Below are positions 1,477 to 55,075 of a DNA stretch of 64,000 nucleotides, in pieces; the first letter of the stretch is position 1, and every line of letters starts with the position of its first letter. This DNA is from Cetorhinus maximus. Taxonomy: Eukaryota. Location of the stretch: positions 12,400,001 through 12,464,000 of the forward strand of contig NC_135886.1 of NCBI RefSeq assembly GCF_964194155.1, given 5' to 3'. A program made the translations under genes and the position numbers. Under the pieces are notes generated by a model, which was not told the origin of the DNA, did no database searches, and saw nothing but the letters and a program-made list of their open reading frames with translations.

Positions 1477-1603
1477 CCAGTACACTTTCGACTTGAAACC
1501 TTAACTCTGTCTTTCTCTCCACAGATGCTGCCAGACCTGCTGAGTCTTTCCAGCAATTTTTGTTTTTGTTTCAGATTTCCAGCATCCGCAGTATTTTGCT
1601 TTT
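1477..1603 (+). mobile_element. Penelope-like terminal fragment with 14-bp TSD
   Basis: GAAACCTTAACTCTG...CAGATGCTGCCAGACCTGCTGAG...GTATTTTGCTTT flanked by ACAATACACTTGAC at 1463-1476 and 1604-1617. Confidence 0.8.
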
Positions 1604-1674
1604 ACAATACACTTGACGTTCTCGTCATGTCTCTACTTAATGAGGTCAGTTTGTGGATCCACCCCCGCAGCAGC

Positions 1675-32045: not shown

Positions 32046-32364
32046 AATGATTGAGGAATGCAGATGCATTGATCTAGGAAAGCAAATACAGTGAACTAGG
32101 TGCTGCAGATATATTGATCTAGGAATGCAGTAGACTGCTATAGGAATGCAGATAGACTGAACTAGTGGGTTATAATAGATTAATCTAGGACATGCCGGTA
32201 CACTGATTAAGAGGGTGTAGAAACATTTATCCAGGAATGAAGGTACACAGGTCAAGCGTGTGCAGATACGCTGATCTCGGGGGTGCAGATACAGTATTTT
32301 AGGAATGCCAATACACTGACCTTAGAGGTGAAGAAACACTGATCTATGAATGCACATACACTGA
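32046..32364 (-). repeat. Inverted satellite segment
   Basis: Monomers read GAATGCAGATACACTGATCTAG, the reverse complement of the array. Confidence 0.92.
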
Positions 32365-35300
32365 TCATTGTATGTGCATTCCTAGATCAGTGTACTTGCA
32401 GCCCCTAGATCAATTTATCTACACTGCAAAGGTCAGTGTATCTGCATTCCTAGATCAGTGTATATGCACCTCCTAGATCAGTGTATCTGCACCCCTACTT
32501 CAGTGTATCTGCACACCCTAGAGCAGTGTGTCCTCACCACCTAGATCAGTATATTTTCACCCCCTAGAACAGTGTATCTGCATTCCTAAATCAGTGTGTC
32601 TGTAGCCCTTAGATCAGTGTATCTTCACCTCTGGATCAGTGATGTATATATACCCCATACATCAGTGCATCTGCACCCATAGATCAGTGTATCTGCATTC
32701 CTCAACCGGTATATCTGCACCCCTAAATCAGTGTGCCTGCATTCCTAGACCAGTGTATCTTCACTCCTAGATCAGTGTGTCTGCACCGCCTAGATCATTG
32801 TATCTGCATTCCTAGATGACTGTATCTATACCTCTAAGAAACATTTAGCTGCATTCCAATATCAGTGTAACTACAAACCAACGACTAGACTGGATCAATG
32901 TCTCTGCACCTCTAGATTAGTGAATCTGCACCCCCAAGTTCAATGTATACTCACGCCCTAGATCAGTGTATCTACACACCCTAGATCAGTTTACATGCAC
33001 CCCCTGGATCAGTGTGGCTATACCCCAAAAATCAGGGTTTCTGCACTGTCTAGATCAGTGTATCTGCAGTCCTATGTCTGTGTATCTGCACTCCTAGAAC
33101 AGTGTATCTTCATTCTTCAATCAGTGTGTCTGCATTGCTCGATCAATGTATCTGCATTCCTTGATCAGTGTATCTGAATTCCAAGATCTGTGTATCCTCA
33201 TTCCTAGATCAGTGTATCTGCATTGCTAGAACAGTGTAACTGCACCCACTAGATCAGTGTATCTTCATTCCCAGATCATTGTATCTGCATTCCTAGATTA
33301 GTATATTTGCATTCCTTGATCAGTGTAACTGGTTTCCTTGATAAGTATATCTGCATTCCTAGATCAGTGTGGCTGCACACCCTAGATCAGTGTATTTGCT
33401 TTCCAATGTCACCATCTGCGCTCCATTGCTCAGTGTATCTGCACCCCTACATCAGTGTATCTGCATTCCAAATCAGTGTATCTGAATTCCTAGATCATTG
33501 TATCTGCATTCCATGATCAGTGTATCTGCATCTTAAGCCAGTGTATCTGCACCCCTAGATCAATGTATCTGCTCCCCCTAAATCATTGCATCTGGTCCCC
33601 CTAGATATTGCATCTGCTCCTCATAGACCATTGCACCTGCTTCCCCTAGATCAGTGTATCTGCAGTCCTAGATCAGTGTATCTGCTTTCCAATGTCACTA
33701 TCTGTGCCCCATTGATCAGCGTATCTGCACCCCTACACCATTGTATCTGCAATCCAAGATCAATGTATCTGAATTCCTAGATCATTGTATCTGCGTTCAT
33801 AGATCAGTGTATCTGCATTCCTACATCAATGTATCTGCACCCCATAGATTTGTGCATCTGCATCTTAGGCCAATGTATCTGCACTCCTAGGTCAGTGTAT
33901 CTGCTCCACCTAGATCAATGTATCTGCTCCCCCACATCAGTGTATCTCCATTCTTATATCAGTGTACCTGTTTTTCTAGATCAGTGTTACTGCTCCCCTA
34001 GATCAGTGTATCTGCATTTCTAGATCAGTGTATCTGCACACCTATTTCAGTATATCTGCATCCATACATCAGTGTATCTGCACCCCCAGGGCATTTATCT
34101 ACATTCCTCCATCAGTGTATCTGCTTTCCCAGATCAGTGTTTCTGCATTCCTAGATCAATATTTCTGCACCCATTAAATCTGTGTATCTACATTGCTAGA
34201 TCAGTGAGTCTGCATTCCTTGATCAGTATATTCTACCCCTTAGATCCGTGAATCTGCATTCCCTAGGTCAGTTTGTCTGCACACCCTAGACCATTGTATC
34301 TGTACACATTAGGTCATTGTATCTGCATTCCAAGATCAGTGTATCTGCCATCCTAGATAAATGTATCTGCACCATCAGATCAATGTATCTGCTTTGCTAG
34401 ATCAGTGAATCTGCATTCCCTATGTCAGTCTATCTGCACCCATAGATCACTGTATTTGCACCCCCTCGATCAGTGTATCTGCACCCACAGGATCATTGTA
34501 TTTGCATTCCTTGATCATTGTATCAGCATTCCAAGATCAGTCTATCTGCATTCCTAGATTAGTGTATCTGCATCCCCTAGATCAGTGTATCTGTACCCCC
34601 TAGATCGGTGTATCTGCACCCTGAGATCCATATATCTGCACCCTGGGATTCGTGTAACTGCACAATTAGAAATTACTGCACATTTGAAGGACTTCTGCTA
34701 GAATTTTTGTAACCTGCAGATTTGCGTATGCAATGTACTGCATCTGGCATTTAACCTTTGTAATTTACTGGTTGTTATGATAAATTGGCACAAAAGCAAG
34801 AATTAGGCTCATTAATGTTACTAAGACCACACTGGGGGCATTTTAATCATATCATGCTTTGAATGTAAAGATTAGCACACAAAGTGGGGACCACTCGATT
34901 CATGTATTAGATCAAAGATTTTACATCACACAAGACTAGCACTCAACTGCCGATATTGACTTCTCTTAATGTTTGAACACATATTGTTTCAATTTGGAAA
35001 ATGAGCCTTCAGAAAAAGCTAAGTGGGATTTCATATGAATATTCAAAAGTACTTAATGAGAACATTATGACAAATGAAGCGTGTTAATCAAAATGTCATC
35101 AAATCCAATCCTACAAAATTTTCCCTATCAAGGACTCAATCATGTTACATAAGACGGTGGTTTGCGCCCTGGTGGTCCACTCGGTGTTAAGCATCACATG
35201 GTGTGGCTCAGTATCCCCACTCTTACATGGCACTCTCTGCCACTTTGCTGCTGAGGAAGACAGTGGGCTGAGAAGGTGTACGATGCGCTGGCCTCTGTTT

Positions 35301-37290: not shown

Positions 37291-37663
37291 AGGGAAGGAA
37301 CAGATAGCCCTAGTGGGGGTGTCCCTTGCTCGCCCTGCTTTCTACCCTTAATGTCACCTATTAGCACATTTCTTAGCTAATATCACCACCATCAACACCT
37401 CTTTGTCCTTTTGTCTATGACATCTTATGGCAATCTCCACCTATCGCTGGCCCTCTATCCAGCTCTACTTGTCCCATCCACCCCCTTAAACCAGCTTATA
37501 TTTCACCTCTCTTCTATTTTTCCTTAGTTGTGTTGAAGAGTCATACGGACTCAAAACGTTAACCGTGTTCCTCTCCGCAGATGCTGTCAGACCTGCTGAG
37601 TTTTTCCAGGTATTTTTATTTTTGTTTTGGATTTCCAGCATCCGCAGTTTTTTGCTTTTATTC
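37291..37663 (+). mobile_element. PLE family 1 3' region with decayed hammerhead
   Basis: AGTT-GTGTTGA-AGAGTCATACGGACTC-AAAAC-GTT-AACC followed by the shared terminal block ending TTTTGCTTTTA. Confidence 0.75.
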
Positions 37664-38744: not shown

Positions 38745-40430
38745 GTTTTAGTCATAGAGTTATACAGCACAGAAACAGGCTCTTCGGCCCATCATGTCCA
38801 TGCCGGGCATCAAGCACCTATTTATTCTAGTCCCATTTTCTAGCACTTGGCCTGTAGCCCTGTATGCTATGGCATTTCAAGTGCTCATCTAAATACCTCT
38901 TAAATGTTGTGAGGGTTCCTGCCTCTACCACCCCCTCAGGCAGTGTGTTCCAGGTTCCAACCACCTTCTGGGTGAAAAGATTTTTCCCCAAATCCCCTCT
39001 AAACCTCCTGCTCCTTACCTTAAATCTATGCCCCCTGGTTATTGACACCTCCGCTAAGGGGAAAGGTTTCTTCTTACCCTATCTATGACCCTCATAATTT
39101 TGTATACCTCTATCAGGTCCCCCTCAGCCTTCTCTGCTCTCAGGAAAATAACCCTAGCCTATCCAGTCTCTCTTCAGAGCTGAAACGCTCCAGCCCAGGC
39201 AACATCCTAGTGAATCTCCTCTGCACTCTCTCCAGTGCAATCACATCCTTCCTACAGTGTGACGACTAGAACTGCACACAGTACTCCAGCTGTGCCCTAA
39301 CTAGTGTTTTATATAGCTCCAACATAACCTCCCTGCTCTTTTTTCTATGCCTCGGCTAATAAAGGCAAGTATCCCATATGCCTTCTTAACCACCTTATCT
39401 ACCTGTGCTGCTGCCTTCAGGGATCTATGGACATGTACACCAAGGACCCTCTGAACCTCTGTATTTCCTAGGGTCCTACCATTCATTGTGTATTCCCTTC
39501 GTGTTAGTCCTCACAAAATGCATCACCTCACATTTCTCAGGATTAAATTCCATTTGCCACTGCTCTGCCCATTTTACCAGCTCATCTATATCGTCCTGTG
39601 ATTTAAGGCTTTCCTCCTTACTATTTATGACACCACCAATTTTTGTGCCATCTGTGAACTTACTGATTATACCTCTTATATTCACATCTAAATCATTAAT
39701 GTACACTACAAACAACAAGAGTCCCAGCACCGAACCCTGTGGTACACCACTCGTCACAGGCTTCCAATTGCAAAAAACAACCTTTGACCATCACCCTCTG
39801 CCTCCTGCTACTAATTTATCTTGGATCCAATTTGCCAAATTGCCCTAGATCCCATGGTCTCTTACCTTCTTGACCATTCTCCCATGCGGTACCTTGTCAA
39901 AAGCCTTATGAAGTCCATGTAGACTACATCAACTGCACTACCCTCATCTACACAACTAGTCATCTCCTTGAAAAATTCATTCAAATTTGTTAGACATGAT
40001 CTCCTCCTGACAAAGCCATGCTGACTATTCCTGATTAATCCCTGCCTCTCCAAGTGGAGATTAATCCTGTCCCTCAGATTTTTTTCAATAGATTCCCTGC
40101 CACTGGTGTTAGACTCACTGGCCTGCAAATACCTGGTTTATCCCTACTACCCTTCTTGAATAATGGTACCACATTCGCTGTCCTCCAGTCCTCTGGCACC
40201 TCTCCTGTGGCCAGAGAGGATTTGAAAATTAGTGTCAGAGCCCCTGCAATCTCCCTCCCTTGCCTCACACAGCAGCCTGGGATACATCTCATCTGGCCCT
40301 GGGGATTTATCCACTTTTAAGCCCACTAAAACCATTAACACCTTCTCCCTTTCAATGCTAATTTGTTCAAGTATATCAGAGTCCTCCTCCCTGATTTCTA
40401 CACCTATATCGTCCTTCTCCATAGTGAATG
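38745..40430 (-). mobile_element. CR1 LINE, 5'-truncated
   Basis: [58 protein letters not shown]. Confidence 0.92.
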
Positions 40431-40608
40431 TTCCGATTATATTTCAATAAAAGGAAATTGTTGTACAATTCCCATAGTTCAAGCTGAAATGGACCCTTTG
40501 TGTTTCACAGAAACTTTGTCCATCCATATCTATGCATATCCATAACTGTGCTGTGGAGCACAGGATATAAATCACAGGCACCTCAAATCAAAGTCCCAGT
40601 TTATTAAG

Positions 40609-40855
40609 ATAAAAGCGAAATACTGCGGATGCTGGAAATCTGAAACAAAAACAAAAATAGCTAGAAAAACTCAGCAGGTCTGACAGCATCTGCGGAGAGG
40701 AAGACAGTAAATGTTTCGAGTCCGTATGACCCTTCATCAGATCTTCATGAACTTCAGTTCTGATGAAGAGTCATACAGACGTGAAACGTTTACTGTCTTC
40801 CTCTCCGCAGATGCTGCCAGACCTGCTGAGTTTTTCCAGCTATTTTTGTTTTTGC
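40609..40855. mobile_element. Palindromic non-autonomous PLE-derived element with hammerhead motifs on both strands
   Basis: Arms about 40646-40740 and 40760-40854 are reverse complements; degenerate TSD CCCAG(TTT/CTC)ATTAAG at 40595-40608 and 40856-40869. Confidence 0.85.
40755..40795 (+). ncRNA. Minimal type-I hammerhead ribozyme motif
   Basis: CAGUU-CUGAUGA-AGAGUCAUACAGACGU-GAAAC-GUU-UACUG: intact core, ACGU palindromic helix III, CAGU/ACUG helix I; helix II partly mutated. Confidence 0.7.
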
Positions 40856-40884
40856 CCCAGCTCATTAAGCTTTGCATCCTCTTG

Positions 40885-41040
40885 TCTCTGAATCACTGTC
40901 AGAGGTGCTATCTTTCAGATAAGACATTAAACCATGGCCCTGGTCCCCCAGTCAGGCGGGTGTAATTTCGTGACACTGTTTTGAGGAAGAGCAGGGGCTT
41001 CTCTTGAGTGACCTGGCCAATGAGTGACCTCAACCAAAGT
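40885..41040 (+). mobile_element. Deu-SINE core fragment
   Basis: CTGTCAGAGGTGCTATCTTTCAGATAAGACATTAAACC...GAAGAGCAGGGG...CCTGGCCAAT. Confidence 0.65.
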
Positions 41041-41164
41041 CATTTGGTTTCCAAATCTACCTGACGTCTGTTTAACATTGAACTTTTACAAAGGGAATGC
41101 CTGTCTCGTGTGTCTCGCTGCATTTACCACCTTTCAACAGTCCCACCTTTGTTCTTTCTTCCAG

Positions 41165-41394
41165 GGTCTTTGGGTACAGCAGGAAGAATGTGCAACAAGT
41201 CCTCGAGGGATACGGATGGGTGCGAAGTGATGTGCTGCGGTCGGGGCTATGACACCACTCGAGTCGTGCGAGTCACTAAGTGCGAGTGCAAGTTCCACTG
41301 GTGCTGTGCGGTGAAGTGCAAAGAGTGCCAGGAGACAGTCGACTTTCACACCTGCAAAGCGCCTAAACGTGCAGACTGGCTTGACCAGACATGA
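41165..41394 (+). CDS. wnt2b: Wnt2b last coding exon
   Basis: Acceptor TTTGTTCTTTCTTCCAG ending at 41164. Phase-1 join restores [34 protein letters not shown]...[35 protein letters not shown]. The WLDQT C-terminus is WNT2B-like. Confidence 0.95.
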
Positions 41395-41995
41395 TTTCAG
41401 CGAGCAGAGCCGCCTTAATATGGGATATGCGTGAAGGCGCGTGGCATTTTTGGGGAGTTGTAGTTTAGCTGCATGGCTTTTGTCTTTAATTAATACCCTG
41501 TGAAGCACTAAAGAATGGACTACACCTCCCAGGGGACCATGGTGAACCGCTGGACATGTTCAGTAAATCATCGCATATTCCTTATCAGTAGGGGGAATTG
41601 CAATATAAAGCGTAAATCCTGAACCTTATCATTCGCAATGTTAATTTTTTTTTTGGAATGGGACAGTGCAACTGCCCATTAAACAAGAGACTCTGTAAGG
41701 TGAAGCACACCACGGCTTCTGTAGTTGTCAAGTGATGAGGATCTCCCTGTAACACCAGCTGCATGCGACTAATTTCTCCAATCTGGTATTTTTTTTTTTT
41801 TGTTTTTTTTTTATTGGTACGTCAATGCCTTATTAATAAGTGGAAAAGCTGCTGACCGCTCCTAAAGATCATTCAGAAGGATGTGAAGCTGCGATTCTGC
41901 ACGAGAAACAAGGGCCTGCACTTTCTGAAGGCAGTTGTATAACTCTGTATTAACAAGACAACCTGCACTATGAACATTAGCTACAAGAGGATAGC

Positions 41996-42040
41996 AGAGA
42001 GAGAGAGAGAGAGGGAGACAACGCGAGTGAGAGTGATAGA
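41996..42040. repeat. (GA)n microsatellite in the putative 3' UTR
   Basis: Direct reading. Confidence 0.75.
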
Positions 42041-42252
42041 GGGACTTGCCTGGTTATAACTAATCTATCCGTTGATTCGCGTCCATATAAGCCTTCAAAC
42101 TGTAACAGGAAGTCTGTGAAGACATTAAGAATGAGGCTCTGGTTCACTGCTGCTGATTTCAATAGTGCAACTCACCTGAACTTTATATGGTTTAAGAATG
42201 TTTTTTTTTTAAAATATTGTAATAATTCTTACACTACTATCAGTATGTTAAT

Positions 42253-42493
42253 ATAAAAGCAAAATACTGCGGATGCTGGAAATCTGAAATAAAAACAGAA
42301 AATGCTGTAAAAACCCAGCAGGTCTGACATCCTCTGTGGCGAGAGAAAGAGGGTTAAATGTTTCCAGTCCCTATGGCTCTTCTTCAGAGAATGCTTCGAA
42401 GAAGAGTCATTCAGACTCGAAACGTTAACGCTGTTTCTCGCTCCGCAGATGCTGGCCAGGCCTGCTGAGTTTTTACAGCATTTTCTGTTTTCA
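42253..42493. mobile_element. Palindromic PLE-derived element, copy 2
   Basis: Inverted arms; TSD TATCAGTATGTT at 42238-42249 and 42494-42505. Confidence 0.85.
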
Positions 42494-42555
42494 TATCAGT
42501 ATGTTCATGTTTGGCAGTCTGCAAGTGCAGTTCCTACAGTCATAAGCTAATGCAA

Positions 42556-42561
42556 AATAAA
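42556..42561 (+). promoter_or_regulatory. Candidate polyadenylation signal AATAAA for wnt2b
   Basis: AATAAA about 1.16 kb after the stop codon, near the end of largely non-repetitive AT-rich sequence. An ATTAAA near 41678 is an alternative. Confidence 0.35.
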
Positions 42562-42689
42562 TGCATTCTACACTGTACCGTAGTTTGAAGGTATCCCAGC
42601 TGCATATATTGTTTGCATTTTCACAGACAAACCTTTTTCTAATTAAAAAAGAAAAAAAAAAGTTAGGCTGGAGCCCATGTTCTGCCGTG

Positions 42690-43545
42690 TGTATTGTGAG
42701 TTCAGTCTCCAGTCAGAAATGGAGGAAGTACAATCTTCAAATCAGAGTCAAGCAATTCACAGGTGAATTTAGGATCAATTTTTTTTTACACAAAGGGTAG
42801 TGGAAACACACAACTCGCCCCAACTTCCACCTCGAAAGCTGTGGAAACCGGAAATTGAAAATTTTCAAATCTGTGTTCGATGGATTTATTTTTTTCGTTG
42901 GGTATCAAAGGATGTGGAGCAAAGGCTGGTGAAAGGAGTCGAAGTACAAGTCAGTCTTCAAATGGCGCAACAGGCTTGAGGTGGTCTAATTGCAACGTAT
43001 AAAATTCTTAAGCGACCTGACGGGGTTAATGCTGATCTGAAAAAGTGTTTCTCCTCACTGGGGAATCTAGAATACAGGGTCATAGCCTCAGAATAAGGGG
43101 CCGGGCATTTTGGATTGAGCTGAGGGGAAATTTCTTCACTCAAAGGGTTATGAATCTTTGGAATTATCGATCCCAAAGAGCTGTGAATGCTCAATCATTG
43201 AGTGTACTCAAGATGGAGATTGCTAGATTTTTGCATGCTAAGGGCATTAAGTGGGGATAGTGCAGGAAGGTGTAGCTGAGGTCAAATATCAGAAAGTCCT
43301 GTTCTTATTGAATTTCAGAGCAGGCTCGAGGAGCTGAACAATTTACTCTAGTTCCTATTTCTTATATAAAGGCAAAATACTGCGGATGCTGGAAATCTGA
43401 AACAAAAACAAAAAGTGCTGGAAAACTCAGCAGGTCTGACAGCATCTGTGGAGAGAAAGACAGAGAACTGAAGAAGAGTCATACGGACTCGAAACATTAA
43501 CTCTGTCTTTCTCTCTACAGATGCTCCTATTTCTTATGTTCTTTC
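42690..43545 (+). mobile_element. Two tandem CR1 3' fragments
   Basis: GESRIQGHSLRIRGR..RGNFFTQRVMNLWN and a more decayed copy upstream; CCTATTTCTTATGTTCTT tail. Confidence 0.7.
43366..43524. mobile_element. Palindromic PLE-derived element, copy 3, inserted in a CR1 tail
   Basis: TSD TCCTATTTCTTAT at 43353-43365 and 43525-43537; core CTGAAGA-AGAGTCATACGGACTC-GAAAC-ATT at 43468-43498. Confidence 0.85.
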
Positions 43546-43569
43546 GAGAGGGTGAACGACCTACTCCTG

Positions 43570-43700
43570 TTCCTCTGGTATGGTAGTGAATCCTATCACC
43601 AACAGCCCCAGGTTCGATCCCTGATCTGTGCTGAGTTAGCTGACCCCTGGCCAAGATGGCAGTGAGGGTGAAGCAACAAGGCTCAATGGCTCCTGGGTTA
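43570..43700 (+). mobile_element. Probable tRNA-derived SINE head (different family)
   Basis: B-box GGTTCGATCC followed by CTGTGCTGAGTTAGCTGA; no full cloverleaf. Confidence 0.4.
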
Positions 43701-43954
43701 TGGATGGGTGAAGTAGCCAGAATTAGTACATCCCCATCACTGTCCATTTACCGCTGCTGGACACAGCACGTGTGGAGAGAGGAGGAGATTGGACACTTCC
43801 TGCTGCTCACTTTGCTGAATGGCTTATTGACACTCGACACTGAGAGGTCACACATTAAGGAGTAGCAGACAACCTATCAGCATCTATGCCAGTCTACCAC
43901 AGCAACAGTAGGAATGGAGAGGAGAAAAATGGAGGCTTATACAGATCTCAAGCA

Positions 43955-44190
43955 AGAAAGGTGTGCAATTATATAGCCCTTCACAACCTCAGGATGTCTC
44001 ATCGTGCTTTACAGCTAATTAAAGTTTCTTTTGAAGTGTACTGACTGTAATATTGTTGGAGACATGGCAACCAATCACAGCAGCCAATTTGCACACAGCA
44101 AGCTCCCACAAACTGAAATGTGATAATGACCAGACATGAGTTTTAATAATGTTGGTTGAGGGATAAAAATGAACCAGGTCACCAGGGGAG
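43955..44190 (-). mobile_element. Deu-SINE 3' half
   Basis: CAGCCAATTTGCACACAGCAAGCTCCCACAAAC..AATGTGATAATGACCAGA..GTTGGTTGAGGGATAAA. Confidence 0.7.
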
Positions 44191-44195
44191 GATTC

Positions 44196-45740
44196 TAAAA
44201 CAAACGCAAAATACTGCAGGTGCTGGAAATCTGAAACAAAAACCGAAAATGCTGGAAATGCTCAAGGTCAGGAAGCACCTGTGGAGAGAGAAGCTGAGTT
44301 AACATTTCAGGTCAATGACCTTTTGTCAGAACTTGGACATGTTAGAGGCGTGAGAGATTTTGAACAGGTACAGAGGCAGGGAAAAGGCATAGGCAGGAAG
44401 CTCTGTGATAGGATGGAAGGCAGATTAAATGGCAAAAGAGACGATGGTGCAAGGAAAAGGAGATGGTAAAGAAACAAAAGATGTGTCTAGAGGAGGTTTA
44501 AATGGAAACAGAATCATTACCAATAGCAACTGTTGGGGAAAATCAGGGGCAGAGGTTACAAAGTGAAATTGTTGGGCTCAGTGTTCAGGCTAGAAGGTTG
44601 TAAAGTGTATAATTGAAAGATGAGGTGCTGTTCCTTAAGCTGGCATTGAGCTTCATTGGAACTGTGTAGAAGGCAGACGCCAGAGAGTTCAGAATTGAAC
44701 AGAGAATTAAAATGTCAGGTGACCAGAAGCTCACGCTTACAGACAGAATGGAGGTGCTCCACAAAGCCATCGCCCAATCTACGTTCATCTCCCCAATGTA
44801 GAGGCGACCATATCATGAGCAGCCAATACAATACACTAAAGTGAACAAATACAAGTAATTTGCTGTTTCTGGGGCCTTGGACAGTGGGAGGGGAGGAGGT
44901 AAAAGGTCAAGTGTTGCAGCTCCTGAACTTGTATGGGAAGGTGCCCTGGGAAGGGGTGGGGATACTGCGGGTGTTTGAGGAATGGACCACAGTTTCGCAG
45001 ACGGAACAGTCCCTCCCGAATGCTGAAAGAGGAGGAGAGGTGAAGATGTGTTTGGTGGTGGCATCACACCGGAGGTGGTGGAAAATGATCCATTGAATGT
45101 GGAGGCTGGTGGGGTGGAAACTGAGGACAAGGGGAGCCCTATTGCAGGTCTGGGAGGGAGGGGAAGGAGTGAGGGAAGAAGTGCAGGAAAATGGGAGGGA
45201 CACAATGAAGGACCCTGTCGACCATGGTGGAGGGGGATCCTCAGTTGAGGTAAAAGGAGGACATATCAGAAGTGTTGGCGTGGAAAGTACCATTGTCAGA
45301 ACAGATGAGACACAAATAGAAAAACTGGGAGTATAGACTGAAGTCCTTACAGGAAGCGAGTGTGACGAATGGTAGTCAATGGGAGTCAGTGGGCTTGTGG
45401 TGGATATTGATCGATAGTCTATCCCCAGAAAAGGAGACAGAGAAGTCAAGGAAGTGAAGGGAAGTGCTGAAGATGGACCACGTAAAGGTGTGAGAAGGCT
45501 GCAAAGTAGGATGCACCATTGTTTAAATTACCCAGTTCAGAGTGAAAGTAGGAAATGGCACTGATATTTCAATGTATCAGAAATATGTATATATAAATAT
45601 ATTCATCAATATATCAAATAACGAGGTGAAGGAGGGAGGGCTGAGAAGAACTGGAACAAGGAATGTTTCACATATCCCACAGAAAAAAGCAGGCATATGG
45701 GTTCCCATAGTAACACCTTTTATCTGGAAGAAATCCAAGG
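44196..45740 (-). mobile_element. Penelope-like element family 1: decayed RT, linker, GIY-YIG and 3' end
   Basis: FQIKGVTMGTHM (RT), RAPLVLSFHPTSLHIQ..TTKHIFTSPPLSAFGRDCSV..GTFP..CNT (linker), LVYCIGCS (GIY-YIG); decayed hammerhead at about 44298-44333. Confidence 0.85.
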
Positions 45741-45744
45741 CCAC

Positions 45745-46480
45745 AAACTCTCCTTCCAGATGAACCAGCAATTTACTTGTACTTATTTCAACTTAGTATT
45801 CTGTAGTCACTGATCTCCTATCCACTGGGGAGAGCAAACACAGATATAGTGACCACCATTTAATCTGCAAGCGTGACTCAGAGCTTCCAGTGACTTGTCA
45901 TTTTAATTCTCTGCGTTGCTCCCACTCTGACCTCTCTGTCCTCAGCCTCCTACATTGTTCCAATGATGCCCAACACAAGCATAAGGAGCAGCACCTCATT
46001 TTTCGGTTAGGCACTTTACAAACTTTCAGACTCAACATTGAGTTCAATACTTTCGGATCATGCTGCCAATCTGTTCTGATTTCAGATTTCCAGCATCTGT
46101 AGTTTCTTGCTTCTATCAGATCATAACCTCTGCGCCCATATTTTCAGGCAGCAGCTGTCGGTAATGATTTTGCATTCACTGTTTACACCTCCTATCGGTC
46201 CATCTTTTGTTCCTTTACTTGTGCCATGACCATCCCCTTTTGTCTTGCACCCTCATCCCTTTCGCCGTTTAAATACTGCTGCCTTCCATTTCATCACAGA
46301 CTTTCCCTTTCGATCTTTCCTTCCCTCCGCACTTTCCCTGCCTGTGAACTTGCTGAAAATCTGTCACATCTCCAACATTTCTAGTTTTGACAAAATGTCA
46401 CCCACCTGACACATTAACTCTGTTTCTCTCTTTGCAGATGCTGCCTGACGTGCTGAGTGTTTACAGCATTTTCTGTTTTT
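45745..46480 (+). mobile_element. Inverted PLE family 1 segment (GIY-YIG C-terminus plus 3' end)
   Basis: CHFNSLRCSHSDLSVLSLLHCSNDAQHKHKEQHLIFRLGTLQ..LNIEFN; terminal block at 46385-46480. Confidence 0.85.
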
Positions 46481-46974
46481 AGATCAGGTAGAACTTCCCC
46501 GCTCATTTTGAGGTATTTTTCATCCACATGAGGGCCTCGGTTTAACATCTTATACCAAAGAATGACATGGTCTACACTGTGGAGTTGGGGGAGGCTGTTA
46601 TTTCGCCATGGTGAGCGGGTGGGAGGAAGCCAATTGCACTCTTGAGCTGAGGCATTCTTATGTTGTGAGGTACTCACATGACCAGAGTCCAGTTAGAAAC
46701 TGACCAAAGGATCAATGCGACTAACCAATCAATTATCCCTTCAAAATAAAGATAGGTTAATAAGTCTGAGCTCTGACAAAGAGCCCAGTTATCAACATTA
46801 ACTGGTCTCGTCGTCCAGTTTATTGCCTCATGTATTGTCAGCATTTTCTGTATAAGCTTCAGAATTCTAAGTTTGTAGCATTTTCTTTTTATTTGAGTTG
46901 TTGTGTATAGGGTTTCAGATGAGGCAATAGCTGTTTGTATCCTGGTGGGCCTGTTAGGGTGGAATGGATACATA

Positions 46975-49900
46975 GAGGGTCTGTGTTGAAATAATGCTGT
47001 TTATTTAAGGGGCTCTGTATTGGGGTGACGCTGTTTATTTAAGGGGTTCTGTATTGGGGTGATGCTGTTTATTTAAGGAGTACTCTATTGGGGTGAATTT
47101 TTAAAAATTCATTCATGGGATCCAGCATTTAAGCCCGTCCCTAATTGCCCTTGAGAGGTGAACTGCCTTCTTGAACCGCTGCAGCCCGTGTGGTGTAGGT
47201 ACACCCAAAGTGCTGTTAGGAAGGGACTTCCAGGATTTTGACCCAGCGACAGTGAAGAAACAGCGATATTTCCAAGTCAGGATGGTGGTGGCTTGGAGGG
47301 GAACTTTCAGGTGGCTCCAGGAGGAGCCTTGGTGAGTTCTTGCAGTGCACCTTGTAGATGGTACACACTGCTGCTACTGTGCGTCGGTGGTGGAGGGAGT
47401 GAATGTTTGTGAATGGGGTGCCAATCAAGCAGGCTGCTTTGTCCTGGACGGTGTCAAGCTTCTTGAGTGTTGTGGGAGCAGCACTCATCCAGGCAAGCAG
47501 AGATTATTCTATCACACCCCTGACGTGCTTTGACGATGGTGGACAGGCTTTGGGGAGTCAGGAGGTGAGTTTCTTGCTGCAAGATTCCTAGCCTCTGACC
47601 TGCTCTTGTAGCCACAGTATTTATATGGCTAGGCCAGTTCAGTTTCTGGTCAATGGTAACCTGGCAGGATATTGTTAGTGGAGGATTCAGCGATGGTAAT
47701 GCCATTTAAAGTCAAGGGGTGATGGTTAGATTCTCTCTTGTTGGAGATGGTCAATGCCTGGTATCTGTTTGGCAGGAATGTTACTTGCCACTTGTCAGCC
47801 CAAGCCTGGATATTGTCCAGGTCCTGCTGCATTTGGACATGGACTGCTTCAGTATCTGAGGAGTCGCGAATGGTGCTGAACATTGTGCAATCATCAGCAA
47901 ACATCCCCCTTCTGATCTTATGATGGAAGTCATTGATAAGGCAGCTGAAGATGGTTGGGCCTTGGACGCTACCCCCTGCCGTGATGTCCTGGAACTGAGA
48001 TGATTTACCCCCAACAACAACAACCATCTTCCTTTGTGCTGGGCATGACTCCAACCAGTGGAGAGTTTTCTTCCTCTGATTCCCATTGACTCCAGTTTTG
48101 CTAGGACTCCTTGATGCCACATTCGGTCAAATGTGGCCTTGATGTCAAGGACAGTCACTCTCACCTCACCTCTGGAGTTCAGCTCTTTTGTCCATGTTTG
48201 AACCAAGGCTGCAATGAGGTCAGGAACTGAGTGGCCCTGGTGGAGCCCAAACTGAGCATCAGTGAGCAGGTTATTGCTAAGCAAGTGCTGCTTGATAGCT
48301 CTGTCAATAACCCCCTCCATCACTTTACTGATGATCGTGAGTAGATTGATGGGACGGTAATTGGCCAGGTTGGATTTGTCCTGCTTTTTGTGTACAGGAC
48401 CTACCAGGGCAATTTTCCACATAGTCAGGTAGATACCAGTGTTGTAGCTGTACTTGAACAGCTTGGCTAGGGGCGCGGCAAGTTCTGGAGCACAAGTCTT
48501 CAGTACTATTGCCGGAATATTGTCAGGGTACATAGCCTTTGCAGTATCTTGGGCCTTCAGCCATTTCTTGATAGCACGTGGACTGAATCGAATTGGCTGA
48601 AGACTGGCATCTGTGATGCTGGGGACTTCCAGCAGAAGCCTAGATAAATCATCCACTCGGCACTTCTGGCTGGAGATTGGAGCAAATGCTTCAGCCTTAT
48701 CTTTTGCACTGCTGTGCTGGGCTCCTCCATCATTGAAGATGGGGATATTTGTGGAGCCTCCTCCTCCAGTGAGTTGTTTAATTGTCCACTACCATTCACA
48801 ACTGGATGTGGCAGAACTGCAGAGCTTAGATTTGATCCATTGGTTGTGGAATCACTTAGTCTATCACTTGCTGCTTATGCTGTTTGGCACACAAGTAGTC
48901 CTGTGTTATAGCTTCACCAGGTTGGCACCTCATTTTTAGGTATGCCTGGTGTTACTCCTGGCATGCCCTCCTGCATTCTTCATTGAACCAGGGTTGATCC
49001 CCTGGCTTGATGGTAATGGTAATGTGGGGGATATGCTGGGCCATGAGGTTACAGATTGTGGTTGAATACAATTCTGCTGCTGCTGATGGCCCACAGCGCC
49101 TCATGGATGCCCAGCCTTAAGTTGCTAGTTCTGTTCGAAATCTATCCCATTTCACATGGCAGTAGTGCCACACAACACAATGGAGGATATCCTCAATGTG
49201 AAGACGGGACTTCGTCTCCACAAGGACTGTGCAGTGGTAACTCCTACCAATACTGACATGGACAGATGCATCTGCGGCTGGCAGGTTGGTGAGGATGAGG
49301 TCAAGTATGTTTTCCCTCTTGTTGGTTCCCTCAGCACCTGCCGCAGACCCAGCCTAGCAGCTATGTCCTTTAGGACTTGGCCAGCTCGGTCAGTAGCGGT
49401 GCTACCGAGCCACTCTTGGTGGTGGACATTGAAATTCTCCACCCAGCGTACATTCTGCATCCTTGCCACCCTTAGTGCTTCCTCCTAGTGGTGTTCAACA
49501 TTGAGGAGCACTGATACATCAGCTGAGGGAGGGTGGTACATGGTAATCAGCAGGAGGTTTCCTTGCCCATGTTTGACCTGATGCCATGAGACTTCCTGGG
49601 GTCCAGAGTCAATGTTGAAGACTCCATTCTGACTGTATACCACTGTGCCGCCACCTTTGCTGGGTCTGTCCTGCCAGTGCAACAGGAAATACCCAGGGAT
49701 GGTGATGGTGATGGTGGTGTCTGGGACATTATCTGTAAGGTATGATTCCATGAGGATGACTACATCAGGCTGTTACTTGGCTATTTATTTAAGAGGTTCT
49801 TGGTATTGGGGTGATGCTATTTTTTTATTCATTCATCAGGTAGAAGCGTCACTTGCTAGGCCAGCATTTATTGCCCATCCCTAATTGACAGTGCTGCGGG

Positions 49901-50220
49901 ATGAACCAAACACTAGATGCCATTTATTTAAGGGACTCCAAATTGAGACAATGTTGTTTATTTCAGGGGTTCTGTATTGGGATAATGCTGTTCATTTGAG
50001 GGATTCTGTATTGGGATAATGCTGTTTATTTAAGGGATTCTGTATTGGGATAATGCTGTTTATTTAAGGGATTCTGTATTGGGGTGATGCTGTAGATCTG
50101 CATTGAAATGAAGCAGTTACTGTAAGGGGTTCTGTTTTGCACTGGAGACCTTTATATAAGGACTGTTAGAATTGTTAATATAAATGACTCTCTATTGGGG
50201 TGAAGCTGTCTAAACTGGGT
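46975..50220. repeat. 34-bp minisatellite ATGCTGTTTATTTAAGGGGTTCTGTATTGGGGTG, split by LINE insertions
   Basis: Units at period 34 (46996, 47030, 47064); resumes at about 49781-49822 and 49915-50220. Confidence 0.8.
47098..49780 (-). mobile_element. LINE family B, near-complete decayed ORF2
   Basis: Endonuclease motifs ESYLTDNVPD..IPGY..QDRPSKGGG and NFNVHHQEWLGS; RT motifs YRPINLLTIISKVME, QFG, LDIKATFDRMWH, FADD. Confidence 0.92.
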
Positions 50221-50269
50221 TTCTGCTCTTTATATAAATCACAGTTGTTATATAGTCATGCAATTAACA

Positions 50270-50490
50270 CACAAGGTCCCACAAACAACAGAGATATTCA
50301 GATTTTTATTGATGTTGATTGAGGGATAAATATTGGCCAGGACAACTGAGGGAACTCCCTTGCTCTTCTTCAAAATAGTACCATGGGATCTTTGACATCC
50401 ACCTGAACAGGCAGACAGGACCTGATTTAGCATCTCATCTGAAAGACCGCACCTCTGACAGTGCCACACTCCCTCAGTGCCGCACTGAAA
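50270..50490 (-). mobile_element. Deu-SINE core
   Basis: GAGGGATAAATATTGGCCAGGACA..GAACTCCC.TGCTCTTCTTCAAAATAGT.CCATGGGATCTTT.ACATCCACCTGA. Confidence 0.75.
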
Positions 50491-50669
50491 GCTAGAGCAG
50501 ATTTTATAGCCACACCTTGTGCCTCCCAGTAGGGCCAGTGTCACTGAGCAAAGCTGATGGTTTGTATTGTACACTCACGTCCACTCACTGAAACTTTGCC
50601 AAACCCATTTCAGAAGCAATTCCAGCATTTCAGCTGGCCAGTTAATGGCCAGCCAGCGTGAAACATTAA

Positions 50670-51818
50670 GCCGCATTTGACCGAGTGTGGTATCAAGGAA
50701 TCCCAGCAAAACTGGAGTCAATGGGAATCAGGGGAAAACTCTCCGCTGGTTGGAGTCATACCTAGCACAAAGGAAGATGGTTGTGGTTGTTAGAGGTCAG
50801 TCATATCAGCTCCAGGACATCACTGCTGGAGTTCCTCATGGTAGTGCCCTCAGCCCAAACATCTTCAGCTGCTTCATCAATGACCTTCCTTCCATCATAA
50901 GGTCAGAAGTGGGGATGTTCGCTGATGATTGCACAATGTTCAGCACCATTTGCAACTCCTCAGATACTGAAGTAGTCCTTGTCCAAATGCAGCAAGACCT
51001 GGACAATATCCAGGCTTGAGCTGACAAGTGGCAAGTAACAATTGCGCCACACAAGTGCCAGGCAATGACCATCTCCACCAAGAGAGAATCCAACCATCGC
51101 CCCTTGATGTTCTTTGGCATTACCATCACTGAATCCCCCACTATCAACATTCTGGGGGGTTACCATTGACCAGAAACTGAACTGGACTAGCCATATAAAT
51201 ACTGTGGCTACAAGAGCAGGCCAGAGGCAAGGAATCCTGCAACGAGTAACCCACCTCCTGACTCCCCAAAGCCTGTCCACCATCTACAAGGTACAAGTCA
51301 GGAGTGTGATGGAAAACTCCCCACTTACCTCGGTGAGTGCAGATCCCACAACACTCAAGAAGCTTGACACTATCCAGGACAAAGCAGCCCTCTTGATTGG
51401 CACCCCATCCACAAACATTCACTCCCTCCACCACCAATGCACAGTGGCAGCAGTGTGTACCATCTACAAGATGCATTGCAGAAACTCACTAAGGCTCCTT
51501 TGACAGCACCTTCCAAACCCACGATCACTACCACCTAGAAGGACAAGGGCAGCAGATAGATGGGAACACCACCACCTGGAAGTTCACCGCCAAGCCACAC
51601 AACATCCTGATTTGGAAATATATCACCGTTCCTTCACTGTCAGTGGGTCAAAACCCTGGAACTCCCTTCCTAACAGCACTGTGGATGTACCTACACCACA
51701 TGGACTGCAGCGGTTCAAGAAGGCAGCTCACCGCCCACCTTCTCAAGAGCAACTAGGGATGGGCAATAAATGCTGGCCCAGCCAGCGAAGCCCACATCCC
51801 GTGAACGAATTAAAAAAA
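50670..51818 (+). mobile_element. LINE family B, 5'-truncated
   Basis: AGVPHGSALSPNIFSCFINDLP..MFADD; complete 3' end with A tail. Confidence 0.9.
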
Positions 51819-52352
51819 ACGCGCATTGAGAAAGCCTCAGCGTTGCAGGGGTGGGGGCAGGATGTGGGCGGGCGCCGACAAAAGTGAGGGTGCGGGTGGG
51901 CGCTTCTAGCGAGTTCCCTGAAGGCAGGCAGCTGCTGCGGAGCTGCCTCAGGCAGCCGCAGACCTGGACAGATTAAATGGCAAGAATAAAAATGCACCAA
52001 ACTGTGTCTATGCAACACATTCAAGCACCTGACAGCAGAATTCAAAAGACATCAGCTCCCGGATATCATTTCATTATATCCCACCCCTGGCATTTCACCC
52101 CACCCTGGATCGAGGCTTCAGCAAAAATGTGAAGGCCGCCTGGCCGATCGGCCCATCCGCCGACCATAAAAGTGGACGGGCCACGTAAAATCGATTTCAA
52201 TTGCTTCCTTAATGGGCTTAACTGCCCACTTAATTGTCAGTGGGCGCGCTTCCAACTGCCGGGCATGTCCACCGAGCGAAATATTGGCGCGGGTGCGCAA
52301 TGACGTCGGGGCACGCATCTGATTTCCCGCGCAACCAGCATAGAATTCTGGC
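51819..52352 (-). mobile_element. GC-rich MITE relative of 57578-58223, interrupted by LINE B
   Basis: Reverse-complement similarity to 57640-58100 (CCTGCCCCCACCCC, CTCCCTGAGGCAGCTC, CATCCAAGGGCGGGAT); TIR-like end AGAATTCTGGCC. Confidence 0.6.
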
Positions 52353-52784
52353 CAATGTTTCAGGTTGATGATCAGGACCAGAAGAAGTAGTTAGAGCTCA
52401 AATAGTTTTTCAATGAACACGGAGCCATGGAAAGGGTGGGATGGATGGGGAGGAAAGAACAAAGGGAAATGTGTGTATTAGGGTGGAGTGTGGGAATGAT
52501 TAAATGCAAAAGGGATGATGGTTTCTTCCTATAATTCAATGCCCCACATGCGAAGAGTGCAGCCGAGGCTGAAAGGGTGATAGAAACTGGATAACGTGGC
52601 TGGAGTACAGTTAGAAATAGACGGAGCCTCGTTCATTGCTATAGGATTGTTGGTGGCGGGCTCACATAACGAGGAGGTGTTTGCATTGTTTCAAATACAT
52701 CTGACCTTTCATTCCCTGCTGTCAAGGGATAAATTCCTCCCTCCATCCTTGATAGACGACTGTGCTTGTGGTAACACTGTCTCT

Positions 52785-53945
52785 CTCAAAGTGCCACACC
52801 AAAGGTTATTGAAGGAAATAAAAGCTCATGGTGTACACGATAACACATGGGCATGGATAGAAGATTGGCTAGCTAACAGGAAACAGAGGGTAGCCATAAA
52901 TGGATCTTTTTCTGGTTGGCAGCATGTAACTAGTGGTGTGCCAGATGATCAGTGCTGGGACCTCAGCTTTTTACAATTTATATAAATGACTTTGCTGCAG
53001 GGACTGAAGATATGGTTGCTAAATTTGCTGATGACACAAATATAAGTAGGAAAGTAAGTTGTGAAAAAAACATAAGGAAGCTACAAAGGGACATAGATAG
53101 GTTGAGTGAGCAAAGGTTAGGCAAATTGGGTATAATGTGGACAAATGTGAAATTGTCCATTTTGGCAGGAAGAATAAAAAAGAAGCATATAATCTAAATG
53201 GTGAGAGATTGCAGAGGTCTGAGATGCAGAGGGATCTGGGTGTCCTAGTGCATGAATCACAAAAGGCTAGTTTGCAGGTACAGTAAGTAATTAGGAAAAC
53301 TAATAGAATGTTATCGTTTATAGTGAGGGAGTTGAATACAAAAGTAGGGAGATTATGCTTCAGTTGTACAGGGCATTGGTGAGACCACATTTGGAGTACT
53401 GTGTACAGTATTGGTCTCCTTATTTAAGGCAGGATGTAAATGCATTAGAAGCAGTTCAGAGAATGTTTACCAGACTAATACCTGGAATGGGGGGGGTTGT
53501 CTTATGAGGAAAGATTGGACAGGCTAGGCTTGTATCGGCTGGAGTTTAGAAGAGGAAGAGGCGACTTGATTGAAACCTTTAAGATTCTGAGAGGTCTTGA
53601 CAGGGTGGATGTGAAAAGGATGTTTCCTCTTGTGGGAGAATCTAGAACTAGGGGTCACTGTTTAAAAATGAGGGGTCACCCATTTAAGACAAAGATGAGG
53701 AGAATGTTTTTCTCTCAAAGGGTTGTGAGTCTTTGGAACTGTCTTCCTCAAAAGGCGGTGGAAGCAGAGTCTTTGAATATCTTTAAAACAGAGGTAGATA
53801 GATTCTTGATAAGCAAGAGGGTGAAAGGTTATCAGGAATGTGGAGTGGAGGTTACAATCAGATCAGTCATGATCTTATTGAATGGCGGAACAGGCTCGAA
53901 GGGCCGAGTGGCCTACACCTGCTCCTAAATCATATGTTCATGTAT
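52785..53945 (+). mobile_element. CR1 LINE, 5'-truncated
   Basis: KVPHQRLL, NRKQRVAINGSFSGW, LGPQLFTIYINDF, KFADDT, SYEERLDRLGLY. Confidence 0.92.
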
Positions 53946-54594
53946 ATGAGATAGGTTTTAGGGTGTTTGTTAAAGAAGGAGAAAGACAAAGGAAGGAATT
54001 CCAGAGCTTAGGACCCAGGCAGCTGAAAGTATGGCCACTAATCATGGAGTGGTGAGTGTCAGGGACGCAGAAGAGACTAGAATTGGAGGACTACAGAGAT
54101 CTTGGAGGGTTGTAGTTTAGAGGAGGTACAGAGATAGGGAAAGGAGAGGCCATGGAGGGATGAGAATTATAGAATAAAGACATTAGTGATCTGAAAGACA
54201 AGTAAGATTGCAACTGGAATAAGACAACAAATGAGCACTTCGGTTATCATAGGACCAAATATAACACTAATGTACAGGTAGAATCACATCACCAGTGAAG
54301 AAACCAGCATCTGAACTCCTTATCGTTTAAAGGATTTTTATTGCCTAAAAGTTTGAATTACCCAATAATTTAAATTAAATGGGAATTTGAATGAGAAATT
54401 GAATTATTGAATAATCTAAATTAAGTAGCTTTCAATTAAGAGGGGTCGACTCTACATGGAAGGATTAGAGAAGACAGGAACAATACACAGATGGATCTTA
54501 ATCGAATCAAGGGATTCAGATGGTTTATAAGCAGAATAACAGATACCTGGGAGTGAGTTACAGACTGGAATCTAATTGAGATGTTCAAAGAGTT

Positions 54595-55075
54595 TACAAC
54601 AGCAACAACCTGCATTCATATAGTTTCTTTAATGTAGTAAAAACACACTTTGCAGGAGCGTAATCAGACAATATCTGATGACAAAACATAAAAGCTTGAT
54701 CAAAGAGGCAGGTTTCAAGGAATAACTGAGAAAGAGGTGGAGAGGTTTAGTGGGGGACTATCACCGTTCCTTCACTGTCACTGGGTCAAAATCCCGGAAC
54801 TCCCTCCCTAACAGCACTGTGGGTGTACCTACACCACATGGACTGCAGCGGTTCAAGAAGGCAGATGAAGGCCTGGCCAGCAATGGTGGGTTGATGAAAA
54901 TTGGGTTTGCACAAAAGGCCAGAATTGGAGGAGCAGAAATCTCAGAGGGTGGTAGGCCTGGAGGGGATTACAGAGCTAGGGAGAGGTAAATCCGTTAAAG
55001 AAGGATTTGAAAGCAAGGATGAGAAATTTAAAATGGAATTGTCGCCAGACTGGGAGCCAATAGGCCAGTGAGCAA
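54595..55075 (-). mobile_element. L2-like 3' remnant with a nested family-B fragment (about 54758-54865, + strand)
   Basis: ACCTGCATTCATATAG..CAGGAGCG..GAGAGGTTTAG, shared with 60695-60930 and 53950-54200. Confidence 0.5.

What the first reader, a model, noticed from the sequence alone, without database searches (positions are those of the whole stretch)
40609..43524. Family of tiny palindromic, TSD-flanked elements carrying minimal hammerhead ribozyme motifs (retrozyme-like PLE derivatives)
Seen: three independent 160-250-bp insertions (40609-40855, 42253-42493, 43366-43524), each with its own 12-14-bp TSD. Each has a left arm starting TAAA(A/G)GC(A/G)AAATACTGCGGATGCTGG and an inverted right arm truncated at a different point. 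At the centre lies CUGANGA-A-GAGUC/GACUC hairpin-GAAAC-RUU, on both strands in the first two copies. Established: Penelope-like elements carry minimal type-I hammerheads whose palindromic helix III (here ACGU) is thought to work as a dimer, and they often show inverted terminal repeats. Inference: this is either a non-coding ribozyme-bearing element mobilised by PLE RT and GIY-YIG, or a recurring ultra-short product of PLE insertion. It looks like a MITE but has retroelement-type TSDs.
Basis: partly seen in the sequence, partly recalled or inferred. Interest (0 to 1): 0.85.

Follow-up and report, generated by a model that had tools for sequence, protein, structure and literature searches.

The report
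Stub palindromes of a Penelope retroelement
The three small palindromes are stub-sized, back-to-back insertions of the hammerhead-bearing end of a very abundant Penelope-like jumping gene; each is likely built anew when the element lands, and the stubs' shared start point likely marks where the element's RNA begins.

Summary
The three insertions and their 13-15-bp TSDs are real. They are not a separate ribozyme family. Both arms are the 3' end (pLTR) of a Neptune-type Penelope-like element (PLE). Its ~920-aa RT/GIY-YIG ORF is open in several copies. A 2.3-kb copy with the same layout lies next door, at 44199-46484.
In 1.46 Mb of sampled genome: 22 real mini head-to-head pairs and 0 tail-to-tail. 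The known ~36-nt PLE tail is on exactly one arm in 19 of 19 classifiable pairs. Centres differ in every copy compared, and sizes run on to 5.6 kb.
5' ends pile up just before hammerhead helix I (30 of 106 arms), about 30 nt below a TATA-like box, not at the cleavage site (2 of 106).
None of the five hammerhead motifs is fully intact, and they lie on opposite strands.
Best reading: priming on both nicked strands, then run-off at the RNA 5' end, giving dead-end copies. Inverted pLTR, tail and minimal hammerhead are published. This scan noted the same reading twice in other DNA.

The parts
40609..40855 (.). Copy 1: head-to-head pair of 5'-truncated PLE 3' ends
   Evidence: arms 86-92% alike; folds as one -160 kcal/mol hairpin
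40595..40608 (+). Copy 1 left TSD (partner 40856-40869, 12 of 14 identical)
40609..40744 (-). Copy 1 tailed arm: hammerhead (C3 at 40740), pLTR end, ~36-nt tail at about 40609-40644; its 5' end is 4 nt before C3
40756..40855 (+). Copy 1 tail-less arm: hammerhead (C3 at 40760; helix II and helix I closing pairs damaged), ends at the common tail-less site
42253..42493 (.). Copy 2: head-to-head pair; TSD 42238-42252 / 42494-42508; both arms begin 2-3 nt before C3
42253..42389 (-). Copy 2 tailed arm: core letters intact (C3 at 42387), helix II broken
42394..42493 (+). Copy 2 tail-less arm: core broken (C3/U4 swapped)
43366..43524 (.). Copy 3: asymmetric pair with perfect 13-bp TSD (43353-43365 / 43525-43537), inserted in another repeat
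   Evidence: 3 empty-site paralogues
43366..43465 (-). Copy 3 tailed arm; stops about 33 nt past C3, so it has no hammerhead core
43466..43524 (+). Copy 3 tail-less arm: holds the core (C3 at 43468) that the other arm lacks; helix I 5' strand and ACGU lost; ends early
44199..46484 (.). Older 2.3-kb head-to-head PLE insertion with the same layout (tailed arm left, tail-less arm right, decayed GIY-YIG ends at 44559-44714 on - and 45797-46099 on +), inside one interrupted repeat
   Evidence: flanks collinear in 5 paralogues; the fragments alone have no Pfam hit and are recognised by eye against intact ORFs
37330..37661 (+). Longer single PLE 3' end with 3' UTR, TATA-like box, hammerhead and tail; links the stubs to ORF-bearing copies
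1490..1604 (+). Solo stub of the same terminus with a 14-bp TSD
41161..41397 (+). Context: last coding exon of a Wnt gene; copy 1 lies upstream of it, copies 2 and 3 downstream of the stop
   Evidence: PF00110, E 4e-26

Best explanation
Each palindrome is two very short copies of the 3' end of an autonomous Penelope-like retroelement joined head to head, likely made in one insertion by reverse transcription primed on both strands of a staggered cut. Shown: identity with the PLE pLTR, TSDs of about 14 bp, the tail on one arm only, copy-specific centres, and a sharp 5' edge at helix I. Inferred: the GIY-YIG nuclease nicks the two strands about 14 nt apart. One 3'-OH primes at the tail end and the other about 36 nt upstream at the tail start, the two internal RT start sites known from the anole PLE. 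When priming uses the pLTR-tail at the 5' end of the transcript, RT would run off the RNA about 100 or 135 nt later, at a TATA/initiator start that coincides with helix I. The two cDNA ends would then be joined by microhomology or short filler. The products lack the promoter, carry the ribozyme on opposite strands inside one hairpin, and are predicted to be dead ends.
For: (1) The same terminus precedes and follows ~920-aa RT + CX4CxxC + GIY-YIG ORFs; 65,513 first-look RT candidates in the genome. (2) In 1.464 Mb not chosen for the element (apart from the window and its contig neighbourhood): 23 adjacent head-to-head pairs, of which 1 was judged spurious and dropped; 0 tail-to-tail; tail on exactly one arm in 19 of 19 classifiable pairs, 3 not classifiable. 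(3) The same one-tail layout, with matching flanking duplications, in 5 of 5 long search-picked pairs inspected, in 3 longer sampled pairs, and in the window's 44199-46484. (4) In 11 of 21 pairs, copy 3 among them, the tail-less arm reaches more than 10 nt further 5' than the tailed arm, so neither arm contains the other (about 8 are clear after allowing for fuzzy ends). (5) Arms of one insertion share rare alleles 6.7 times more than re-paired arms (0 of 2000 re-pairings reach it): one source per event. (6) 5' ends: 30 of 106 arms lie in the 12 nt around the helix I start, against 5 in the 70 nt from -100 to -30 and 2 in 9 nt around the cleavage site (29 of 112). (7) TATA-like motif at -29 to -32 in 31 of 43 arms that reach upstream. 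(8) PMC11167929: a purified PLE protein cuts and extends both strands, starts RT internally at two sites that bound the tail, is predicted to be a dimer, and does not need ribozyme cleavage.
Against: No RNA 5' end was mapped: only assembled contigs were available and they listed no start pile-ups. The edge is spread over about 10 nt, and 14 of 106 ends fall at -30 to -9, some of them alignment overshoot. Old subfamilies with no close long reference can mimic an edge. The TATA counts are related copies, not independent events. Later deletions at palindrome centres could also make non-nested arms. Arms are not more alike than the best outside copy in 14 of 21 mini pairs and 2 of 5 long pairs, so a single RNA molecule is not shown. 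In PMC11167929 start-site use did not differ between strands, so strict one-tail pairing needs an added coupling step. That element is a Poseidon, not a Neptune.
Confidence: 0.62

Rival explanations
1. Same parent PLE, but the inverted arm arises by self-priming or fold-back of a single cDNA (or on an antisense template), with endonuclease resolution trimming the tail; unequal centres come from later deletion.
For: Proposed for inverted junctions in PMC3846280; tail ascribed to EN-mediated resolution in PMC8557442. Several centres hold short snap-back-like inserts. Arms share rare alleles. 7 of 21 pairs have similar arm lengths and 3 of 21 a longer tailed arm.
Against: 11 of 21 pairs have the tail-less arm longer, so they are non-nested. 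Both outer junctions are element 3' ends abutting the TSD, as expected for two primers. Solo copies end at the tail (45) or tail-less (35) site without any partner, 5 unclear.
Confidence: 0.2
2. The 5' edge is not a transcription start but a splice acceptor (YAG just before helix I) or an RT stop or RNA-processing point at the hammerhead fold; the rest as in the best explanation.
For: A pyrimidine tract and YAG precede helix I in long copies. In D. virilis the intron 3' end maps to the 5' end of helix I (PMC4209133).
Against: In most solos that start at this edge and have a TSD, the TSD abuts it with no shared upstream exon. The AG is also explained by helix I pairing. TATA spacing fits +1 at this A. 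The 15 joints shown include none at this acceptor (176 more were not shown).
Confidence: 0.12
3. A non-autonomous, self-amplifying ribozyme element (retrozyme- or MITE-like) whose palindromic RNA is mobilised as a unit by the PLE protein.
For: High abundance (22 pairs per 1.464 Mb); recurrent size of 160-270 bp; retrozymes derive from PLE pLTRs (bioRxiv 10.64898/2026.07.22.740005). Short pLTR transcripts from promoter-bearing stubs could act as templates in trans.
Against: Centres differ in 11 of 11 loci. The best outside match across copy 2's centre is 86% with length changes. Only 1 same-strand tandem pair among 162 hits. Motifs lie on opposite strands and inside a hairpin. 4 of 99 arms are intact.
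Confidence: 0.05
4. A DNA-transposon MITE.
For: Short, non-coding, inverted repeat, TSD.
Against: Asymmetric ends, variable 12-16-bp TSDs, and both arms are the 3' end of an RT-encoding element.
Confidence: 0.01

Closest known systems
EN+ Penelope-like element insertion units with an inverted 5'-truncated copy and one-sided 30-40-bp tail (PMC8557442 Fig. 2 legend; PMC3846280; PMC2377424 Fig. 1C legend)
   Same: pLTR at both ends of a single RT/GIY-YIG ORF, head-to-head inverted copy, tail on one end only, TSDs, TATA/Inr-like motifs in the pLTR
   Different: Here the unit is often reduced to the two pLTR stubs (160-270 bp), with TSDs of 12-16 bp against 8-10 in the rotifer. The 5' ends share one edge. 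The passages read do not quantify tail asymmetry or describe that edge.
Minimal type-I hammerheads of PLE pLTRs (PMC4209133)
   Same: CUGANGA core, extra base before helix II, conserved G-C at the helix II base, short helix I, palindromic positions 15.2-16.2 with no loop 3; most motifs dispersed in truncated PLEs; opposite-strand pairs 100-700 bp apart noted in Schistosoma
   Different: Helix II is 5 bp. The youngest ORF-intact subfamilies read U or C at core position 6. Activity is untested here.
Poseidon of Anolis carolinensis (PAc), internal RT initiation (PMC11167929)
   Same: Tail equals the start of the ORF-side sequence between two preferred termini; hammerhead just upstream in the pLTR
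   Different: This element has the CX2-5CxxC linker (Neptune/Nematis type). The main text read does not treat head-to-head products or 5' run-off.
Non-LTR retrozymes (PMC7229834; bioRxiv 10.64898/2026.07.22.740005)
   Same: Non-coding, pLTR-related, type-I hammerhead
   Different: Retrozymes are same-strand tandem repeats with two or more intact ribozymes and circular RNAs; these are single inverted pairs with decayed motifs.
L1 twin priming (recalled, not tested)
   Same: Both nicked strands prime, giving a 5' inversion inside a TSD
   Different: L1 arms do not overlap and L1 primes at poly(A); here both arms copy the same region from two fixed internal starts.

Membership tests
EN+ Penelope-like element (parent) | Single ORF with RT and C-terminal GIY-YIG | tested here: met
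   919-926-aa open frames. RVT_1 E 1.6e-6 and GIY-YIG E 4.5e-4, both just under Pfam cut-offs, in 2 of 3 proteins; none in the third. Atlas neighbours at 0.98 carry PF26215 and RVT_1. No PDB sequence match.
EN+ Penelope-like element (parent) | [quoted passage not shown] | tested here: met
   CxxC between the motifs in the translated ORFs; definition from PMC8557442
EN+ Penelope-like element (parent) | pLTR repeated upstream of the ORF and at the 3' end, with hammerhead | tested here: met
   L132, L133, L136, L142
EN+ Penelope-like element (insertion unit) | Inverted 5'-truncated copy, 30-40-bp tail at one end, TSD | tested here: met
   19 of 19 classifiable mini pairs; long pairs
Neptune clade | CX2-5CxxC linker before a C-terminal EN | tested here: met
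   CX4CxxC in the linker; shared with Nematis
Neptune clade | RT phylogenetic placement | not tested
   No reference PLE set was held and no tree was built
Minimal type-I hammerhead | Conserved core with helices I and II, covariation | tested here: met
   Family level: most core positions 83-94 of 99. Helix II covaries at 2 of 5 pairs (0 and 1 of 1000 shuffles; relatedness not controlled); helix I is conserved without covariation.
Minimal type-I hammerhead | Intact motif in the three copies | tested here: not met
   0 of 5 motifs have core, stems and ACGU together
Minimal type-I hammerhead | Self-cleavage as dimer or with protein | not testable with these tools
   Needs an in vitro assay
Non-LTR retrozyme | Same-strand tandem units each with a hammerhead | tested here: not met
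   Inverted single pairs; 1 tandem pair among 162 hits
Non-LTR retrozyme | Abundant circular RNA | not testable with these tools
   Only contigs of guessed-RNA runs were available
MITE (DNA transposon) | Symmetric TIRs, fixed short TSD, shared internal sequence | tested here: not met

The most novel reading that the evidence does not exclude
The mini-palindromes are a genome-scale record of the PLE integration reaction. A PLE dimer primes on both nicked strands at two coupled internal start sites, always one tailed and one tail-less. When it uses the pLTR at the 5' end of its own mRNA it runs off at a TATA/Inr start that coincides with hammerhead helix I. One mechanism would then explain inverted pLTRs, the one-sided tail and tens of thousands of ribozyme-centred stubs, and would leave the hammerhead without a role in setting the template's ends.
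Probability: 0.45. Interest if true: 0.65.

Novelty: new member of a known kind. Interest (0 to 1): 0.4.

Why it matters
As a new ribozyme element it does not stand. As data it is useful. How PLEs make their inverted ends and one-sided tail, and what their hammerhead does, are still open: PMC8557442 calls the hammerhead's function unknown, and PMC11167929 leaves the later steps unvalidated. An estimated 40,000-60,000 such stubs (10-15 per Mb in a non-random sample, scaled to 4.0 Gb) give a large set of reaction products with sharp predictions: one tail per pair, non-nested arms, and an edge at the start site rather than the cleavage site. They also warn annotators: these stubs mimic MITEs and miRNA hairpins and inflate hammerhead counts.

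Tried and rejected
Rfam scan: only sub-threshold miRNA and snoRNA hits, no hammerhead model.
Pfam on the window's decayed ORF fragments: 0 of 6 hit. PDB sequence search with a full ORF: none.
Hammerhead cleavage as the source of the 5' ends: rejected, 2 of 106 ends near the site.
Amplified palindrome family: rejected; the loci were not cut out, so only its table was used.
The longest open frame (1056 aa, L110) is a microsatellite read-through.
Same RNA molecule for both arms: not shown.
RNA evidence for a start site or splicing: runs X1, X3, X18 and X22 are contigs, so no starts can be seen. They show tail-end and tail-start loose ends in X3 and roughly 40- to 100-fold more depth on the pLTR than on the ORF 5' end in the two large runs. 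No expression claim is made.
The pair table was mis-indexed by one and was redone. In one search, seven 5' ends were mis-assigned to the partner arm; redone without 5 ambiguous references.
The TSD finder has a background of 26 of 300 (pair settings) and 36 of 300 (single settings) at random sites. Only 14 of 85 single arms gave a TSD within its short range; 14 of the 22 mini pairs did, and copy 1 was missed for its two mismatches.
Sequence look-up in earlier findings gave one unrelated note; none is held for this genome.
Lunse et al. 2016 on PLE hammerhead variants was not held, so whether position-6 variants are published is open.
Full report
1. Observation. The window is G000:C8:12400001-12464000 of a 4.0-Gb genome. 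It looks like a shark; that is recalled from the look of its repeats and from earlier scan notes on other genomes, and was not tested. The three insertions are at the stated places, with TSDs of 14 bp (2 mismatches), 15 bp (1 mismatch) and 13 bp (perfect). Copy 3's flanks rejoin in 3 paralogues of the repeat it interrupts, overlapping by 12-13 bp. Copy 1's arms are 92% complementary over 99 nt, and it folds into one hairpin of -160 kcal/mol (z -23.9). A profile of the terminus finds 120 hits in 1.06 Mb and none in shuffled or reversed controls. The feature is real.

2. What it is. The left arm is the antisense of a PLE 3' end. Following the window's longer copy at 37330-37661 into the genome leads upstream through a 3' UTR into GIY-YIG and RT coding sequence at 90-95% identity among copies. 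An RT query gave 65,513 first-look candidates, 144 scored. Four of 12 long-frame loci fetched hold 919-926-aa open frames running from just after the tail to the end of the EN. The same terminus, or part of it, sits directly upstream of the ORF and again at the 3' end, so it is the pLTR, and the last ~36 nt (the tail) are the start of the ORF-side sequence. The protein has RVT_1 and GIY-YIG hits just under Pfam cut-offs in 2 of 3 copies, atlas neighbours with PF26215 and RVT_1 at 0.98, a CX4CxxC linker and CxxC inside GIY-YIG. By the definitions in PMC8557442 this is Neptune/Nematis type; no tree was built. The window's 44199-46484 is an older 2.3-kb insertion of the same layout with EN remnants on both arms inside one interrupted repeat.

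3. Census. I sampled 1.464 Mb: 364 kb around and including the window, and 1.1 Mb from arbitrary places on other contigs. There were 162 terminus hits scoring 20 or more. Adjacent pairs (gap up to 60 nt): 23 head-to-head (1 judged spurious and dropped), 0 tail-to-tail, 1 tandem. The tail is on exactly one arm in 19 of 19 classifiable pairs; 3 were not classifiable, copy 3 among them because its right arm ends early. TSDs were found for 14 of 22, 12-16 bp, mode 14. Arm 3' ends are bimodal: 66 tailed, 52 tail-less, 6 other of 124. Long pairs with the same rule and flanking duplications: L082, L087, L134, L138, L140 (search-picked) and three in the sample, up to 5.6 kb. Centres are individual: 11 of 11 loci found with copy 1's centre differ; the best outside match over copy 2's centre is 86%; the 30 loci found with copy 3 vary by eye. 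Eleven pairs lie in the 364 kb and 11 in the other 1.1 Mb, giving a rough 40,000-60,000 genome-wide.

4. The 5' edge. Aligned to natural long copies, 30 of 106 arms start between -9 and +2 relative to C3 (peaks at -4 and -3), 14 at -30 to -9, 5 at -100 to -30 and 29 further up; 2 start within 9 nt around the cleavage site at +31 (18 of 124 arms were dropped for low identity or no alignment; similar). In long copies a TATA-like motif lies 29-32 nt above that A in 31 of 43 arms, and the A usually follows two pyrimidines. Several solos begin at this edge directly after their TSD. The simplest reading is that the template RNA begins there. A splice acceptor at the same place has a precedent (PMC4209133) but predicts upstream exon sequence that most TSD-bounded solos lack. 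RNA data could not decide.

5. Hammerhead. Across 99 arms most core positions are conserved in 83-94; position 6 is A in 55, U in 28 and C in 11, and the C-G of ACGU decays like a CpG. Helix II covaries at two pairs (G-C 57 / A-U 17; U-A 65 / C-G 9; relatedness not controlled). Helix I is conserved without covariation. So the family carries a genuine minimal type-I motif, as published for PLE pLTRs. The three copies do not keep it: 4 of 5 motifs have the core letters, none has core, stems and palindrome (4 of 99 in the sample do). Isolated folds give helix II in 3 of 5. The two motifs of a pair are on opposite strands and pair with each other in a read-through RNA.

6. Mechanism. Both outer junctions are element 3' ends next to the TSD, the geometry expected if each nicked strand primes its own cDNA. 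In 11 of 21 pairs the tail-less arm holds 5' sequence that the tailed arm lacks while lacking the tail; copy 3 is a clear case. Simple fold-back cannot make this without a later deletion. Arms share rare alleles (0.026 vs 0.004 per site; 0 of 2000 re-pairings; one pair contributes 12 of 45 and may be misaligned, and without it the rate is still above every re-pairing), so each event uses one source; one RNA molecule is not shown. PMC11167929 supplies the biochemistry for a related clade: both strands cut and extended, two internal RT starts bounding the tail, predicted dimer, ribozyme cleavage dispensable. I infer dual priming with coupled start sites, run-off at the transcript start for the stubs and random truncation for long copies, then end joining. 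Confidence 0.62 for the whole chain, about 0.95 for the PLE-stub identity alone.

7. Literature. Read: PMC4209133 (parts 1-2 of 4: abstract, results, discussion), PMC11167929 (parts 1-2 of 4, main text, plus passages), bioRxiv 10.64898/2026.07.22.740005 (parts 1-3 of 5, no supplements). Passages only: PMC3846280, PMC8557442, PMC2377424, PMC7229834, PMC6765202, PMC6155905. Lunse et al. 2016 was not held. Eight searches listed no paper on such mini-palindromes, on two-strand priming as the source of PLE inversions, or on a start-site edge; Repbase, Dfam and subscription papers were not searchable. Two earlier scan notes on other DNA reached the same reading; I saw them after forming mine (note), and they are not independent evidence.

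8. Verdict. Real, abundant and explained as the smallest form of the known PLE insertion unit; not a new ribozyme element. New member of a known kind; interest 0.4, carried by the testable mechanistic regularities.

Noticed in passing
L132-L136, L142 and sampled arms: The subfamilies with open ORFs, including the youngest (97-99% alike), read U or C at hammerhead core position 6, while older ones keep A. The catalytic core may be relaxing in the most recently active elements.
   Followed up: partly
window 41161-41397; 42253-42493; AATAAA at 42556: Last exon of a Wnt gene (Wnt2b-like by recall). Copy 2 lies between the stop and an AATAAA about 60 nt downstream of it, so it may put a 240-nt imperfect hairpin in the 3' UTR.
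   Followed up: no
L142:5549-5556 and 5630-5636; L135: Younger subfamilies have a donor-like CAG/GT about 80 nt below the YAG at helix I, which would frame the hammerhead as a small exon. The three copies lack this donor.
   Followed up: partly
window 46070-46117: A tail-only fragment of about 47 bp with an apparent short duplication, nested inside the right arm of the 2.3-kb insertion.
   Followed up: no
window 43466-43524; r148 pair; two longer C4 pairs: Some tail-less arms end 45-70 nt before the usual site yet abut a clean TSD, suggesting occasional priming further upstream.
   Followed up: partly
window 32331-32398 and 13702-14494: A miRNA-like hairpin that looks like an inverted junction of a short tandem repeat also present near 14 kb.
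   Followed up: no
L251-L263 centres: Centres often hold short templated-looking fillers, including a snap-back of the helix I 5' strand. These loci were picked by a query that has such a filler.
   Followed up: partly
runs: The element's pLTR-ORF junction is held by runs of at least three coded organisms at a share of 0.2 or more, so it is not confined to this genome.
   Followed up: no
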